A stretch of DNA of 64,000 nt from Candidatus Omnitrophota bacterium (lineage in GTDB: Bacteria; Omnitrophota; Gorgyraeia; B26-G9). Both the position numbers and the translations under genes were made by a program. Every line of letters begins with the position of its first letter. The first letter of the stretch is position 1. Below, piece by piece: positions 61,072 to 64,000 of this stretch. Below the pieces are notes generated by a model. It was not told the origin of the DNA and did not search any database. It worked only from the letters and a program-made list of their open reading frames with translations. The DNA lies in contig JAHITE010000123.1 in NCBI GenBank assembly GCA_018817585.1, positions 1,280-65,279 on the forward strand, in the 5' to 3' direction.

Positions 61072-61542
61072 TTAAACTGGGTTTGCCTCTTTATTCCCCG
61101 GATAATAATTTTTTATCCACTTCTGAATTTTAGGATCATCAGGCTTATGGGAAAAATATTTCTTAGATACAAGTTTTTTAAATTCTTCGTAAGGATCTTT
61201 TTTATCTCCGGCTTTGCGTAAATGTTTTTCGTCATTCAAGTATAGATATAAAATAAGCTTTGGCTGGCTAGAAAAACAAAAAAATAATCTATACCGCTGC
61301 AGGCCCTGCTTATAACGACGATATTTTTTAAGCTCATCGCGCAGGCGATATTCTTCCCGGTTTGGATCCTGAGGAATAATTTCTTGATCAGCTTTACGGA
61401 TACGATAAGCAAGTTTTACAATCTCATGTTGCTGAAATTCTTCATTACCAAGTTTGCTGCGCAATTCTATTACTTGTTCTTTTAATTTTGCTATCCGTTG
61501 AAAGTAAAAATCATGGTATTTTAAAAGATAACTACTCTTCAT
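61072..61542 (-). CDS. yhaV: YhaV-family type II toxin (ribonuclease)
   Basis: C-terminal segment RYRLFFCFSSQPKLILYLYLNDEKHLRKAGDKKDPYEEFKKL aligns with E. coli YhaV GRYRLFFRYSEKEKVIILGWMNDENTLRTYGKKTDAYTVFSKML. Start set at an internal Met so the protein is about 156 aa. Confidence 0.75.
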   Translation of the reverse strand: MKSSYLLKYHDFYFQRIAKLKEQVIELRSKLGNEEFQQHEIVKLAYRIRKADQEIIPQDPNREEYRLRDELKKYRRYKQGLQRYRLFFCFSSQPKLILYLYLNDEKHLRKAGDKKDPYEEFKKLVSKKYFSHKPDDPKIQKWIKNYYPGNKEANPV

Positions 61543-61834
61543 CGGCAGCAGTAACTCCCTTAAGAAGTTCGTCCCATTCCTTATCCCAAACCTCTTTTGC
61601 CGCATGAAGTTTTTCTGGATGTTTCATAGCGTCAACTGTCAACGCGTTAATAAATTTAGAAAACAACGATTCTGATTCAATAGTATCCAATTCTGTTTTG
61701 TGACGAATGCTTAATTTCTTTGAAGTACCTTCTAAAATAACTTCAATAGTGTCTGCGTTTTTAACAAAATCCATTGGGATATCTACCGCGTAACTACCAC
61801 CATGTTTAAATAATTTTCTCACAAATACATTCAT
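61532..61834 (-). CDS. prlF: PrlF/SohA-like AbrB-fold antitoxin
   Basis: N-terminal swapped-hairpin motif KHGGSYAVDIPMDFV; segment FSKFINALTVDAMKHPEKL resembles PrlF FLRFLDADIQNNPQK; acidic C-terminus; overlaps the toxin start. Confidence 0.6.
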   Translation of the reverse strand: MNVFVRKLFKHGGSYAVDIPMDFVKNADTIEVILEGTSKKLSIRHKTELDTIESESLFSKFINALTVDAMKHPEKLHAAKEVWDKEWDELLKGVTAADEE

Positions 61835-61842
61835 AATATATT

Positions 61843-61883
61843 CCTCCTGCTATAAGTATACATAAAAATATACACTTTGTCAA
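61843..61883 (-). promoter_or_regulatory. consensus promoter, palindromic operator candidate and strong RBS for the prlF-yhaV operon
   Basis: On the minus strand: TTGACA, 17-nt spacer, TATACT, then AGGAGG 5 nt before the ATG. A GTATA...TATAC palindrome overlaps the spacer and -10. Confidence 0.55.
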
Positions 61884-62061
61884 CAGCACGCACACGCACA
61901 AATCCTTACCATAATGAAACTTTGAGTATCAGTAACACTCTCTCTATAAGCCTAAATGTGCCGTCCTGGTTATGATGCCGTTTCCAAACCCGCATTGGAT
62001 TGTGATTGTATCTTCCACTCATGCCAACTACTTTCTAATGTAGAGGTCTGGAGTTCCCCTC

Positions 62062-62382
62062 TTATTTTCCCCAGACAATAATAGTGGGTGGAGTTCCAGG
62101 TATTGAAAGTTCTAAAAATTCAAGTCCGTTCGATCCCTCTTCTGTTAAATCAATATGCACTAATATATTATTAGAAAAAAATATTTCTATACTATCCTCT
62201 TCTTCTTTGATTTTTTTTACAACTAAATTTTGAATGGAACAAATTTTTTTATCATCTGATAAGTAATATTCGTTATAAATATTTAATATTATACCTCTCT
62301 CAAAAAATATTTGAGTATAATCATGGATTTCTAAAATTTTATTCACCGTAAGTCCTTCTAATATTTTCAATTGAGATTCCAT
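62062..62382 (-). CDS. putative immunity protein for the adjacent Rhs-CT toxin (106 aa)
   Basis: Small acidic cytoplasmic ORF starting 10 nt after the toxin-domain ORF: the typical toxin/immunity arrangement. No recognisable domain. Confidence 0.35.
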   Translation of the reverse strand: MESQLKILEGLTVNKILEIHDYTQIFFERGIILNIYNEYYLSDDKKICSIQNLVVKKIKEEEDSIEIFFSNNILVHIDLTEEGSNGLEFLELSIPGTPPTIIVWGK

Positions 62383-62391
62383 AATTTACTC

Positions 62392-63120
62392 CTAATTAAT
62401 ATTGTAGTGTGTTTCTGCAAAAGAACCAGTTCTTCCCGTATAAGGATTTACGCCTTGATTGTAGCCATTTGAATATTTTATATAACCTTTTGGAGCACGT
62501 AATGTAGCGTCCATTATTCTCATTGTTGATACTTGTCCATTAGTACCTCCTTTACCTCCTGTAAAAGCAGCCCCAGTTATATTTCTCGATTCGTTTATAA
62601 CTGCGGTTGGCCCTATTGCTCCTTTTGGAACGGGATACACTGTCCCATCAGAGGAAACAACAAAATCAGGAGCAGGTGCTTTTGTTGCAGACTTAGAAGA
62701 GTTGGTTGAAGTGCTAGAACCTCCAGCAGCAGACAAACCTACAGATAAAATAGTAGCAACAAGCGAAACATCCGTTAGCATCCCTGGCGCAGTCTGCCAG
62801 GAAGGATTTGACATAAACGTACCAGTACCTTCACCTAAATGACCTATTGCTGCCGGAGTTTGAAATACTCCCATCCCAAATTCCATCACCGTAGTAATTA
62901 CTGTGGCCTCATATATCCCTGCAGCATCTGTGGCCATACCGGAAATAATAATATCCTTAGCCTCTTCCGTTTGCATAGATGCCCACAAGGCAAGCCTGTC
63001 ATACCACAACCCTTTTTCCCCGCACAACCCCATCGGATCGACATAATTCAAGGGGTTATTGGAGACGTAGGAATAAAGATTAATCCCTCCATAATATCCT
63101 ATAGGATCGGTTTGCAGCAA
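62392..63120 (-). CDS. orphan Rhs C-terminal cassette: end of the Rhs core (..[28 protein letters not shown]) plus a variable C-terminal toxin domain; lacks an ATG start
   Basis: The canonical Rhs core terminus PxxxxDPxGL (autoproteolysis site) is followed by about 210 aa of unrelated sequence. The frame opens right after a TGA, with only TTG/CTG at its head. No rhs body upstream. Confidence 0.65.
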   Translation of the reverse strand: [242 protein letters not shown]

Positions 63121-63205
63121 TACACGGTACGTTCATTTTGAAAAAATTTCGTAACTGCCGATACCTATACCAGTTAAAAATATTCAGCTAAAAATCAAAG
63201 AGCGG

Positions 63206-63550
63206 TTAAATACCTATTTTTTCTTCTACTTTTGTTATTCTTTTTTCGTGGTTATCTATATTAGTATCAAGTTTCTTCTCGACCCGGTCTATTTTTCTGC
63301 TATTTTCCATTACCGCCATTTTTACCGTACCTAACTCTGACTCCACATTGCCAAGCCTTGTTTTTATTTCGCCGATATTCTTATTCATTTCTCCATGCTG
63401 CTCAGCAATAAGACTAATGCTTTTATTGACCTGCTCCAGCAATACTCTGGTCTCCCGCTCCGAATCGTATGCCGGGGTTTTTCCCTTTTTCCCTGCCATC
63501 TTCTTGTTCCTCCTGTTACCTTTGTTAATACTAAAAGTATATCCCATCAC
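63206..63550 (-). CDS. small coiled-coil hypothetical protein
   Basis: Heptad-rich sequence (..IGEIKTRLGNVESELGTVKMAV..VEKKLDTNIDNHEKRITKVEEKI); sits between the integrase and the Rhs-CT cassette. Confidence 0.3.
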   Translation of the reverse strand: MMGYTFSINKGNRRNKKMAGKKGKTPAYDSERETRVLLEQVNKSISLIAEQHGEMNKNIGEIKTRLGNVESELGTVKMAVMENSRKIDRVEKKLDTNIDNHEKRITKVEEKIGI

Positions 63551-63572
63551 TCATACTAATTCAATGCTCTTT

Positions 63573-64000
63573 TTAAACCACTCTCATTCTTTCCCGGGGA
63601 TGGTACCGGCTAATCGCGGTTTTTAATTCCTGGGGCACGATGCGCGTATATATTTCCGTGCTTCTTGGACTGGTGTGTCCAAGTAGCTGCTGAATGATTC
63701 TTAGATTACTGCCGTTTTCTAAAAGATGCGTAGCACAGCTGTGCCTGATGCTGTGTACTCCAATGTTTTTATCCAGCCTTAGTTTTCTGATGTATTTTTT
63801 TACCAGGTAACGTAATGCCTTTTGCGTTATCCGGGTTCCGCTTAAACTAATAAAGACTGCTTTTTCTCTTACGTGTTTGCATAGTTTCATGCGGCTGGTT
63901 AAAAGATAGTTCTCTACGGCTTGTTTTGCTTTTTCTCCGATGGGCACGATCCTGTCTTTACGGTTTTTCGGGATTCTGATATGAATGCTTCTATCTTTTA
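63573..64000 (-). CDS. tyrosine recombinase/phage-type integrase, catalytic C-terminal domain (ORF continues past the window edge)
   Basis: Box II HSIRHSCATHLLENG...LLGHTSPRSTEIYTRI with catalytic His/Arg/Tyr. The reading frame is open upstream to position 64000, so it is truncated by the window and not necessarily by a stop. Confidence 0.75.
   Translation of the reverse strand, partial: KDRSIHIRIPKNRKDRIVPIGEKAKQAVENYLLTSRMKLCKHVREKAVFISLSGTRITQKALRYLVKKYIRKLRLDKNIGVHSIRHSCATHLLENGSNLRIIQQLLGHTSPRSTEIYTRIVPQELKTAISRYHPRERMRVV

What the first reader, a model, noticed from the sequence alone, without database searches (positions are those of the whole stretch)
61072..64000. Mobile island at the window edge: integrase, orphan Rhs-CT toxin plus putative immunity gene, and a PrlF/YhaV TA module
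From right to left: a tyrosine integrase (open past the window edge), a small coiled-coil ORF, and a start-less ORF that begins with the canonical end of the Rhs core ([28 protein letters not shown]) and continues into an unassigned approximately 210-aa C-terminal domain. Next come a 106-aa probable immunity gene, an approximately 225-bp gap, and a PrlF/YhaV toxin-antitoxin pair with its own consensus promoter. The Rhs-CT piece has no Rhs body upstream. It is an orphan toxin/immunity cassette of the kind that can recombine into a full-length rhs/YD gene elsewhere. The giant YD-repeat gene at 3.5-10.3 kb lacks any such tip. The C-terminal toxin domain matches no family I recognise.
Basis: partly seen in the sequence, partly recalled or inferred. 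Interest (0 to 1): 0.7.

Follow-up and report, generated by a model that had tools for sequence, protein, structure and literature searches.

The report
Orphan Rhs toxin-immunity cassette beside recombinase
The window edge carries the cut-off tip of an Rhs "warfare" toxin with its protective immunity gene, next to a DNA recombinase and a YhaV toxin-antitoxin pair; this is a known kind of arrangement, but the toxin and immunity proteins belong to widespread families that no database yet names.

Summary
On the minus strand lie a Xer-like tyrosine recombinase fragment, a 97-aa coiled-coil ORF, and a frame that opens after a stop codon with the last 31 positions of the Rhs-associated core (TIGR03696, E 2.5e-9). 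A 106-aa ORF follows, then an AbrB-type antitoxin/YhaV pair behind a TTGACA-17-TATACT promoter.

New here:
- The last 92 aa form a real toxin domain. It matches 421 representative clusters, always at the C-terminal tip, on proteins from about 70 to 2877 aa, including full-length Rhs proteins.
- The AlphaFold2 model is all-beta with pLDDT 95.
- It is not Ntox10.
- The 106-aa ORF belongs to one family found 0-20 bp downstream of this domain in 78 of 80 metagenome loci. It is therefore the cognate immunity.

The "orphan cassette" reading is supported. The "mobile island" reading is only suggested: composition is mosaic, no att sites were found, and the contig could not be extended. An rhs gene split by a recombinase-borne insertion remains possible.

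This is a new member of a known kind. Interest is moderate, mainly for the unnamed toxin/immunity family.

The parts
63573..64000 (-). C-terminal 141 aa of a Xer-like tyrosine recombinase, open past the window edge. It contains the HxxR box and the catalytic-Tyr box (HSIRHSCATH ... EIYTRI).
   Evidence: PF00589 E 2.2e-26. TIGR02225 XerD E 6.3e-38 is collinear, with no integron-integrase insertion. The closest relative is 83% identical in another Omnitrophota contig, L002.
63536..63564 (-). Promoter-like site TTGAAT-17-TATACT between the recombinase stop and the coiled-coil ORF. It could drive the coiled-coil ORF, the orphan toxin and the immunity gene as one transcript.
   Evidence: 9 of 12 matches. 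This is a weak consensus match only, and no terminator-like site lies downstream.
63206..63499 (-). 97-aa coiled-coil ORF (ATG preceded by AGGAGG). Its function is unassigned.
   Evidence: Sequence. Only low-scoring coiled-coil hits.
63025..63132 (-). Remnant of the Rhs-associated core end (…[34 protein letters not shown]). The frame opens after the TGA at 63133-63135.
   Evidence: TIGR03696 positions 46-76 of 76, E 2.5e-9, above the curated cut-off. Translation.
62671..63024 (-). N-terminal part of the variable CT. It is a hydrophobic/helical module with the motif [15 protein letters not shown]..PSW and a Ser/Thr-rich linker. It is inferred to be a delivery or membrane-entry module.
   Evidence: The motif is shared with P0026-P0028, which carry other C-termini. 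Hydropathy peaks at 1.68 at ORF residues 114-132. No Pfam hit.
62395..62670 (-). 92-aa C-terminal toxin domain, all-beta, from an unnamed family.
62062..62382 (-). 106-aa cognate immunity gene. It has a strong RBS, no signal peptide (read by eye from the sequence) and GC of 25.5%.
   Evidence: Homologous (up to 43% identity, E 9e-30) to the ORF 0-20 bp downstream of the toxin domain in 78 of 80 metagenome loci. 3 of 41 members touch PF19686 DUF6188.
61855..61883 (-). Near-consensus sigma-70 promoter of the toxin-antitoxin operon (TTGACA-17-TATACT).
   Evidence: 11 of 12 matches.
61532..61834 (-). 100-aa antitoxin with an AbrB/SpoVT-like N-terminus.
   Evidence: Position and 11-nt overlap with the YhaV gene. 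VapB1 6nkl_C E 0.0027. NF047862 VapB E 0.019. No PrlF or other Pfam hit.
61072..61542 (-). 156-aa YhaV-family toxin (ribonuclease toxin of a type II toxin-antitoxin system).
   Evidence: PF11663 Toxin_YhaV E 3.2e-27, profile positions 3-124 of 138.

Best explanation
The region holds a promoter-distal, start-poor 'orphan' tip of an Rhs polymorphic toxin together with its cognate immunity gene. It lies immediately downstream of a Xer-like tyrosine recombinase and a small coiled-coil gene, and upstream of an independent AbrB-type antitoxin/YhaV toxin-antitoxin operon.

The tip keeps only the last ~31 residues of the Rhs core (up to DPMGL, the self-cleavage site in characterised Rhs proteins). It then has a hydrophobic helical module and ends in a 92-aa all-beta toxin domain.

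**Shown**
- The domain is a bona fide polymorphic-toxin tip, used on full-length Rhs proteins and in orphan arrays elsewhere.
- The 106-aa gene is its conserved partner.

**Inferred**
- The immunity protein is made. It has a strong RBS and may be read through from the promoter-like site at 63564..63536. It protects the cell against this toxin when kin or competitors deliver it.
- The toxin piece itself is largely silent, a reservoir that could be joined to an rhs body through the retained core-end sequence.
- The toxin acts in the cytoplasm, because the immunity protein has no signal peptide.
- It is most likely a nuclease. Its closest fold is the Mg-dependent DNase PT7(Bc), and its conserved residues include Arg, two Tyr, Asn, Gln, Thr and a C-terminal His. 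I put the probability of nuclease activity at about 0.35-0.4.

The YhaV pair is an ordinary type II toxin-antitoxin module that may stabilise the accessory segment.
For: - Rhs core end: (TIGR03696, E 2.5e-9).
- A stop codon directly upstream and no YD sequence before it.
- Toxin domain family: 28 hits, some with Rhs Pfam domains; 421 clusters at E<=1e-3; host proteins up to 2877 aa; domain always at the C-terminus.
- Contexts: full-length Rhs proteins with this tip (L102, L109, L119, L121, L128); orphans downstream of an Rhs gene carrying another tip (L088, L114/L115, L117).
- Immunity: (78 of 80 loci, one family, own protein up to 43% identity, E 9e-30).
- PT7 is an EDTA-sensitive DNase (bioRxiv 10.1101/2021.10.19.465003, read).
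- Conserved residues.
- YhaV and promoter.
- Orphan rhs-CT/immunity modules, and their activation by recombination, are established in Salmonella and E. coli (PMC3967940, PMC3150448; listed, with the mechanism taken from my knowledge of those papers).
Against: - No full-length rhs partner is visible. The only YD-like gene in the window lacks an Rhs core.
- The classical position of orphans, downstream of a main rhs gene, is not seen here.
- Similarity to PT7 is at fold level only: hmmsearch 0.4 bits, hhalign probability 0.2%, Foldseek E 2.9.
- PT7's essential D37 and H47 have no clearly invariant counterparts.
- Expression of any of these genes is untested.
- A TTG start is annotated by NCBI, so the piece may be translated.
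Confidence: 0.7

Rival explanations
1. Split gene rather than free orphan. A mobile element carrying the Xer-like recombinase(s) and the coiled-coil gene inserted into the 3' core region of a full-length rhs gene. The toxin tip and immunity gene were left on one side, and the Rhs body lies on the other, beyond the window edge.
For: The break lies exactly inside the conserved core (homology starts at about 63126), with the recombinase cassette directly upstream. The closest recombinase relative sits in a tandem-recombinase element (L002). Similar recombinases lie within a few kb of this toxin cassette in 3 other loci (L085, L130, L152). The sequence beyond 64000 could not be obtained.
Against: No Rhs body has been seen. 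The recombinases near other cassettes are only 29-38% identical to this one and lie on the other side of the cassette. The NCBI contig is only about 3.7 kb longer than the window, which leaves little room for a recombinase element plus an rhs body.
Confidence: 0.17
2. Self-contained toxin-antitoxin-like module. The orphan is translated from the TTG at 63120 or from an internal start and acts inside the producer. The 106-aa protein serves as its antitoxin, as reported for the Salmonella orphan RHS element, and stabilises the accessory segment.
For: NCBI calls a 242-aa protein from the TTG. The two genes are tightly coupled. An orphan RHS element acting as a type II toxin-antitoxin module is published (PMC7043789, title and abstract).
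Against: No Shine-Dalgarno sequence precedes the TTG or the internal ATGs. The same domain is overwhelmingly attached to delivery modules elsewhere. A dedicated toxin-antitoxin pair already sits next door.
Confidence: 0.1
3. Decaying relic. The toxin fragment is non-functional debris, and only the immunity gene (if anything) is kept.
For: Only 31 core residues are kept, and no start signal is evident. E67, the commonest residue at that position of the toxin domain, is Ser here. The GPEA motif of the immunity family is GLEF here.
Against: The 246-codon frame is intact. All nearly invariant toxin residues (R51, Y63, Y66, N68, Q72, T81, H88) are present. An identical sequence was recovered in an independent assembly (L001).
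Confidence: 0.1

Closest known systems
Orphan rhs-CT/rhsI modules of Salmonella Typhimurium LT2 and E. coli (PMC3967940, PMC3150448)
   Same: A toxin tip without a start, retaining a piece of the Rhs core ending in DPxGL, followed at once by a small immunity gene. Other members of this toxin family sit in exactly such arrays downstream of a main rhs gene (L088, L114/L115, L117).
   Different: No main rhs gene lies upstream here. A recombinase and a coiled-coil gene sit there instead. Only about 93 bp of core homology is kept. The host is an uncultured Omnitrophota bacterium. The toxin and immunity families differ.
PT7(Bc)/PIM7(Bc) polymorphic DNase toxin and immunity, PDB 8owu (bioRxiv 10.1101/2021.10.19.465003)
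   Different: No statistically detectable sequence similarity. PT7's essential D37 and H47 are not clearly conserved. This domain has an extra Gly-rich loop (GGKGGxNGQ). The immunity families show no similarity. PT7 is fused to LXG (type VII secretion), whereas this domain is fused to Rhs.
Ntox10 (PF15520), the name NCBI gives to Leptospira members
   Same: Leptospira proteins carrying this C-terminal domain are annotated 'polymorphic toxin type 10'.
   Different: In those proteins the Ntox10 match covers only their N-terminal part (profile positions 3-81 of 193), not the shared C-terminal domain. The window protein has no Ntox10 hit. Ntox10 is described as alpha+beta with Imm27/Imm53 immunity (PMC3482391). 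This domain is all-beta with a different immunity family.
E. coli YhaV/PrlF type II toxin-antitoxin system
   Same: YhaV-family toxin (PF11663, E 3e-27). The antitoxin gene comes first and overlaps the toxin gene. The operon has its own strong promoter.
   Different: The antitoxin gives no PrlF family hit. It resembles AbrB-type VapB antitoxins weakly.
XerC/XerD-like tyrosine recombinases of mobile elements; integron integrases
   Same: Catalytic C-terminal domain with the HxxR and Tyr boxes. Best matches are the XerD/XerC models.
   Different: Scores are far below the XerC/D equivalog cut-offs, so it is not the housekeeping enzyme. It lacks the integron-integrase insertion. Its closest relative sits in a tandem-recombinase arrangement (L002).

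Membership tests
Rhs C-terminal toxin (polymorphic toxin tip) | End of the Rhs-associated core (PxxxxDPxGL) immediately N-terminal to the variable region | tested here: met
   TIGR03696 positions 46-76 of 76, E 2.5e-9, 37.5 bits against a cut-off of 32.5.
Rhs C-terminal toxin (polymorphic toxin tip) | The same C-terminal domain occurs at the tips of full-length Rhs/YD proteins elsewhere | tested here: met
   Host proteins of 1000-2877 aa. Loci L102, L109, L119, L121 and L128 have YD repeats, a core end and this domain.
Rhs C-terminal toxin (polymorphic toxin tip) | Cognate immunity gene directly downstream | tested here: met
   One ORF family lies 0-20 bp downstream in 78 of 80 loci. The window ORF matches it at up to 43% identity, E 9e-30.
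Rhs C-terminal toxin (polymorphic toxin tip) | Toxicity of the domain and its neutralisation by the immunity protein | not testable with these tools
   Needs expression experiments.
Orphan rhs-CT cassette | No Rhs body or YD repeats and no proper start upstream of the core remnant | tested here: met
   TGA at 63133-63135, a 70-bp spacer, then the coiled-coil ORF and the recombinase. This holds within the window only.
Orphan rhs-CT cassette | Lies downstream of a main rhs gene with which it shares core sequence | tested here: not met
   A recombinase lies upstream, not an rhs gene. There is no other core end in the window. The rest of the genome was not available.
YhaV/PrlF toxin-antitoxin system | YhaV-family toxin | tested here: met
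   PF11663, E 3.2e-27.
YhaV/PrlF toxin-antitoxin system | PrlF-family antitoxin | tested here: not met
   No Pfam hit at E<=0.1. Only weak VapB/AbrB-type similarity.
PT7 DNase toxin family | Sequence homology to PT7 and conservation of D37, H47 and H73 | tested here: not met
   hmmsearch 0.4 bits and hhalign probability 0.2%. Only a C-terminal His (H88) has an obvious counterpart.
PT7 DNase toxin family | Shared fold | tested here: inconclusive
Ntox10 (PF15520) | Match to the Pfam model over the toxin domain | tested here: not met
   No hit for the window protein. In the Leptospira relatives the hit covers a different, N-terminal part.
Integron (integrase plus cassettes) | IntI-specific extra domain; attC-like repeats between cassettes | tested here: not met
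   The alignment to XerD is collinear, and TIGR02249 matches only residues 57-124. No recurring inverted repeats flank the genes.
Integrative mobile island | Recombinase plus flanking direct repeats or att site, often a tRNA target | tested here: inconclusive
   A recombinase is present. No repeats and no nearby tRNA. The far boundary lies outside the window. Composition is mosaic.

The most novel reading that the evidence does not exclude
The 92-aa all-beta domain and its ~105-aa partner may be a previously undescribed, widely distributed polymorphic toxin/immunity pair. They are absent from Pfam (2025 copy) and NCBIfam (release 20). Their fold is related at most distantly to the PT7 DNase, and their catalytic set differs (Arg, two Tyr, Asn, Gln, Thr, C-terminal His, plus a Gly-rich loop). 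They could therefore represent a new enzymatic toxin activity. A further, less likely reading is that Xer-like recombinase elements move such cassettes between genomes.
Probability: 0.4. Interest if true: 0.5.

Novelty: new member of a known kind. Interest (0 to 1): 0.35.

Why it matters
Orphan Rhs tips are the raw material from which bacteria re-arm their contact-dependent weapons. Finding one in an uncultured Omnitrophota genome extends that picture but does not change it.

The practical value is the toxin itself:
- It is small, and its structure is modelled with high confidence.
- It is widespread (421 clusters) and has a strictly co-occurring immunity family.
- No database names either family.
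- Its only structural neighbour is a recently solved DNase toxin.

This makes it a clean candidate for experimental characterisation and for adding a toxin/immunity pair to annotation resources.

Tried and rejected
**Extending the contig beyond 64000**
- Exact-protein look-ups returned only a 2,132-bp Logan contig identical to 61376-63507.
- Three alternative starts of the coiled-coil ORF were not on record.
- The genome contigs and metagenome-contig scans did not contain this contig.
- The recombinase itself is not in the protein database; the best hit is 83% identical.

**Ntox10**
- Rejected.

**PT8 of Leptospira**
- It shares the N-terminal 'MSAVLG' with Leptospira members of this family.
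- Its primer-derived C-terminus (…TPGEYK) and mutated sites differ, so it is a different tip.

**Sequence link to PT7**
- Rejected statistically.

**PDB sequence searches**
- The toxin-domain alignment hit only Rhs core regions.
- The immunity profile hit nothing.

**Immunity structure**

**Other searches that gave nothing**
- The afdb50 fold library was unavailable.
- Rfam found nothing in 60900-64000.
- PADLOC found nothing relevant.
- No att-like or attC-like repeats were found.

**Specific recombinase-cassette association**
- Only 3 of 80 loci have a recombinase nearby, at 29-38% identity to this one.
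Full report
**What is there**

The window comes from a Candidatus Omnitrophica MAG. The toxin ORF and the 106-aa ORF are NCBI proteins KKD05_11670 and KKD05_11665. All genes of the finding are on the minus strand, from right to left:

- **Recombinase, 63573..64000.** The last 141 aa of a tyrosine recombinase, running off the window. 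PF00589 scores E 2.2e-26. The best NCBIfam models are XerD/XerC (E 6e-38 and 1e-36), far below their equivalog cut-offs. The alignment is collinear and has no integron-integrase insertion.
- **Promoter-like site, 63564..63536.** A weak match, 9 of 12.
- **Coiled-coil ORF, 63206..63499.** 97 aa, behind an AGGAGG, with no family assignment.
- **Spacer and stop.** A 70-bp spacer ends in a TGA at 63133-63135.
- **Orphan toxin frame, 62392..63132.** It reads [36 protein letters not shown] followed by 210 further residues.
- **106-aa ORF, 62062..62382.** Its AGGAG overlaps the toxin stop codon.
- **Gap of 227 bp.**
- **Promoter TTGACA-17-TATACT, 61883..61855.** 11 of 12 matches.
- **Antitoxin-like ORF, 61532..61834.**
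- **YhaV-family ORF, 61072..61542.** It overlaps the antitoxin ORF by 11 nt. PF11663 scores E 3.2e-27.
- **Next gene.** The start of an iron ABC substrate-binding gene follows only 26 bp later.

**Is the Rhs end real?**

TIGR03696 (Rhs-associated core) matches its last 31 positions at E 2.5e-9, above the curated cut-off. Homology starts about three codons after the upstream stop, so the piece is truncated inside the conserved core. Nothing Rhs-like lies upstream in any frame, and there is no second core end in the window.

The large repeat gene at 3539..10315 has only a weak RHS_repeat hit and a sub-threshold dockerin hit. It has no Rhs core, so it is not an evident acceptor for this tip.

**The toxin region is modular**

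A search with the 210 residues after DPMGL found 28 proteins. They split the region in two.

- **Residues about 85-130 of the ORF.** The motif [15 protein letters not shown]..PSW, followed by a hydrophobic helix with a hydropathy peak of 1.68, recurs in three proteins that carry other C-termini (P0026-P0028). I infer a delivery or membrane-entry module. This is not shown.
- **The last 92 residues.** These are the conserved toxin domain.

**The toxin domain family**

An exhaustive HMMER search of 1.84 billion representatives found 421 clusters at E<=1e-3 and 146 at E<=1e-10. The domain is always at the extreme C-terminus. Host proteins range from about 70 to 2877 aa.

Eighty metagenome loci were fetched with the family alignment. 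They show three contexts:

- full-length Rhs/YD proteins ending in this domain (L102, L109, L119, L121, L128);
- roughly 300-450-aa 'mini-Rhs' forms;
- short closed frames of 108-240 codons. Several of these lie downstream of a full-length rhs gene that carries a different tip (L088, L114/L115, L117), which is the classical orphan array.

**The immunity gene**

A word-based search found no relative of the 106-aa ORF. In the 80 loci, however, an ORF of about 100-120 aa starts between -28 and +22 nt of the toxin stop codon.

- A profile of these ORFs hits 78 of 80 loci. The two without a hit are cut by contig ends.
- BLAST single-linkage puts 74 of the 75 downstream ORFs compared into one cluster together with the window ORF.
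- The window ORF matches them at up to 43% identity, E 9e-30.

Strict adjacency across such diverse loci is the standard comparative evidence for a cognate immunity protein. The family is not in Pfam, although 3 of 41 members touch DUF6188 at E 4.5e-5. By eye the protein has no signal peptide, so I infer that the toxin acts in the cytoplasm.

**What the toxin might do**

With 25 homologues, AlphaFold2 gave an all-beta model at mean pLDDT 95.2 and pTM 0.85.

- **Foldseek** found nothing significant, but 8owu again had by far the highest TM-scores, 0.45 and 0.53.
- **PT7** is a 78-aa, EDTA-sensitive, non-specific DNase described as a novel fold. Its immunity protein is 117 aa (bioRxiv 10.1101/2021.10.19.465003).

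I recovered the PT7 sequence from the PDB and tested it against a 171-sequence profile of this domain. There is no detectable similarity: 0.4 bits by hmmsearch and 0.2% probability by hhalign.

By eye, short motifs fall in the same order (MRI..DP, Y(D)EN, H-(I/F)-P five residues from the C-terminus). However, PT7's essential D37 and H47 have no clearly invariant counterparts.

The nearly invariant polar residues here are R51, Y63, Y66, N68, Q72, T81 and H88, with N44, Q46, K65 and D/N54 less conserved.

I therefore propose a cytoplasmic nuclease as the most likely activity, at roughly 0.35-0.4 probability. This is an inference.

**It is not Ntox10**

NCBI labels the Leptospira members 'polymorphic toxin type 10'. 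In those proteins the Pfam match covers only their N-terminal part, and the window protein has no Ntox10 hit. Ntox10 is described as alpha+beta with Imm27/Imm53 immunity.

The validated Leptospira toxin PT8 shares the N-terminal 'MSAVLG…' with Leptospira members of this family but has a different C-terminus. This domain is therefore an alternative tip at that polymorphic locus.

**Is it a mobile island?**

The evidence is suggestive only.

- **Composition is mosaic**. The immunity gene has GC 25.5% (z = -5 against 45 window genes). YhaV GC3 has z = -2. The recombinase GC3 has z = +3. The tetranucleotide distance of 61072-64000 ranks 3rd of 59 equal-sized windows.
- **No boundaries were found.** There are no direct or inverted repeats of note, no tRNA nearby and no Rfam element.
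- **The recombinase's closest relative** is 83% identical. It lies in another Omnitrophota contig, downstream of a second recombinase gene, and is itself split by a stop codon (L002).
- **Recombinases near the toxin cassette elsewhere are rare.** Xer-like recombinases occur within a few kb in only 3 of 80 loci (L085, L130, L152). They lie on the other side of the cassette and are 29-38% identical to this one. There is no specific association.
- **The contig could not be extended**. The recombinase protein is absent from the protein database. This is consistent with a contig end or a pseudogene but proves neither.

**Toxin-antitoxin module**

The YhaV assignment is secure. The antitoxin has an AbrB-type N-terminus and weak VapB similarity (6nkl, E 0.0027; NF047862, E 0.019), but no PrlF hit. 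'PrlF/YhaV' should read 'AbrB-type antitoxin/YhaV'. The promoter match is near-perfect. The number of promoter-like sites in the region as a whole is not above chance.

**Verdict**

This is an orphan, or possibly split-off, Rhs toxin tip with its cognate immunity gene. It sits beside a Xer-like recombinase and an ordinary YhaV toxin-antitoxin pair.

The kind is well known from Salmonella and E. coli (PMC3967940, PMC3150448). The possibility that such orphans act as toxin-antitoxin modules has also been published (PMC7043789).

What is new is that the toxin and immunity families are widespread yet unnamed, and that the toxin has a confident small all-beta model whose only neighbour is the PT7 DNase.

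I rate it a new member of a known kind, with interest 0.35.

Noticed in passing
window 3539..10315 (-): A giant repeat protein is split into two ORFs (6038..10315 and 3539..5962) by a 75-bp gap. It has only a weak RHS_repeat hit (E 1.4e-6) and a sub-threshold dockerin hit, and no Rhs core end. It is a divergent YD-like surface protein, possibly frameshifted or a two-gene arrangement.
   Followed up: partly
L002 612..2368: The closest relative of the window's recombinase (83% identity, another Omnitrophota MAG) lies directly downstream of a second Xer-like recombinase. It is itself split into N-terminal (1410..1790) and catalytic (1811..2368) ORFs by a stop codon. This is a tandem-recombinase element, possibly decaying.
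   Followed up: partly
P0169-P0182 (Leptospira interrogans), P0010, P0019: Leptospira proteins carrying this toxin domain start with the same 'MSAVLGG…' as the experimentally validated toxin PT8 but end differently. The two toxins appear to be alternative tips at one polymorphic locus. NCBI's 'polymorphic toxin type 10' label for them rests on the N-terminal part only.
   Followed up: partly
window 62671..63024 (-); P0026-P0028: A conserved module, [15 protein letters not shown]..PSW plus a hydrophobic helix, sits between the Rhs cleavage motif and the toxin domain. It recurs in proteins with unrelated C-termini. It has no Pfam family and may be a pre-toxin or translocation module.
   Followed up: partly
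P0009, P0016, P0017, P0022, P0023; L086, L099, L133, L136, L138, L140: Many carriers of this toxin are 'mini-Rhs' proteins of about 300-370 aa. They have what looks like a signal peptide, only the last ~100 residues of the Rhs shell/core, and then the toxin. Examples include Stenotrophomonas proteins on a 1-Mb contig.
   Followed up: no
window 62062..62382: The immunity gene has GC 25.5% and GC3 16.8%, five standard deviations below the other genes of the window and much lower than the adjacent toxin frame (GC 43%).
   Followed up: partly
window 56000..56500: A local GC peak (0.51 against about 0.38 background) lies inside the ORF 55950..57110.
   Followed up: no
window 61045..61072: Only 26 bp separate the YhaV stop from the GTG start of the iron ABC substrate-binding gene (60020..61045). 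The promoter of that transporter operon must therefore lie inside the toxin-antitoxin genes, or the operon is read through from them.
   Followed up: no
L085 3078..6398, L130 4461..7183, L152 1590..6162: In three metagenome loci the toxin-immunity pair is followed by a 560-890-aa ORF and then one or two Xer-like recombinases. This looks like a recurrent recombinase-borne element next to Rhs loci.
   Followed up: partly
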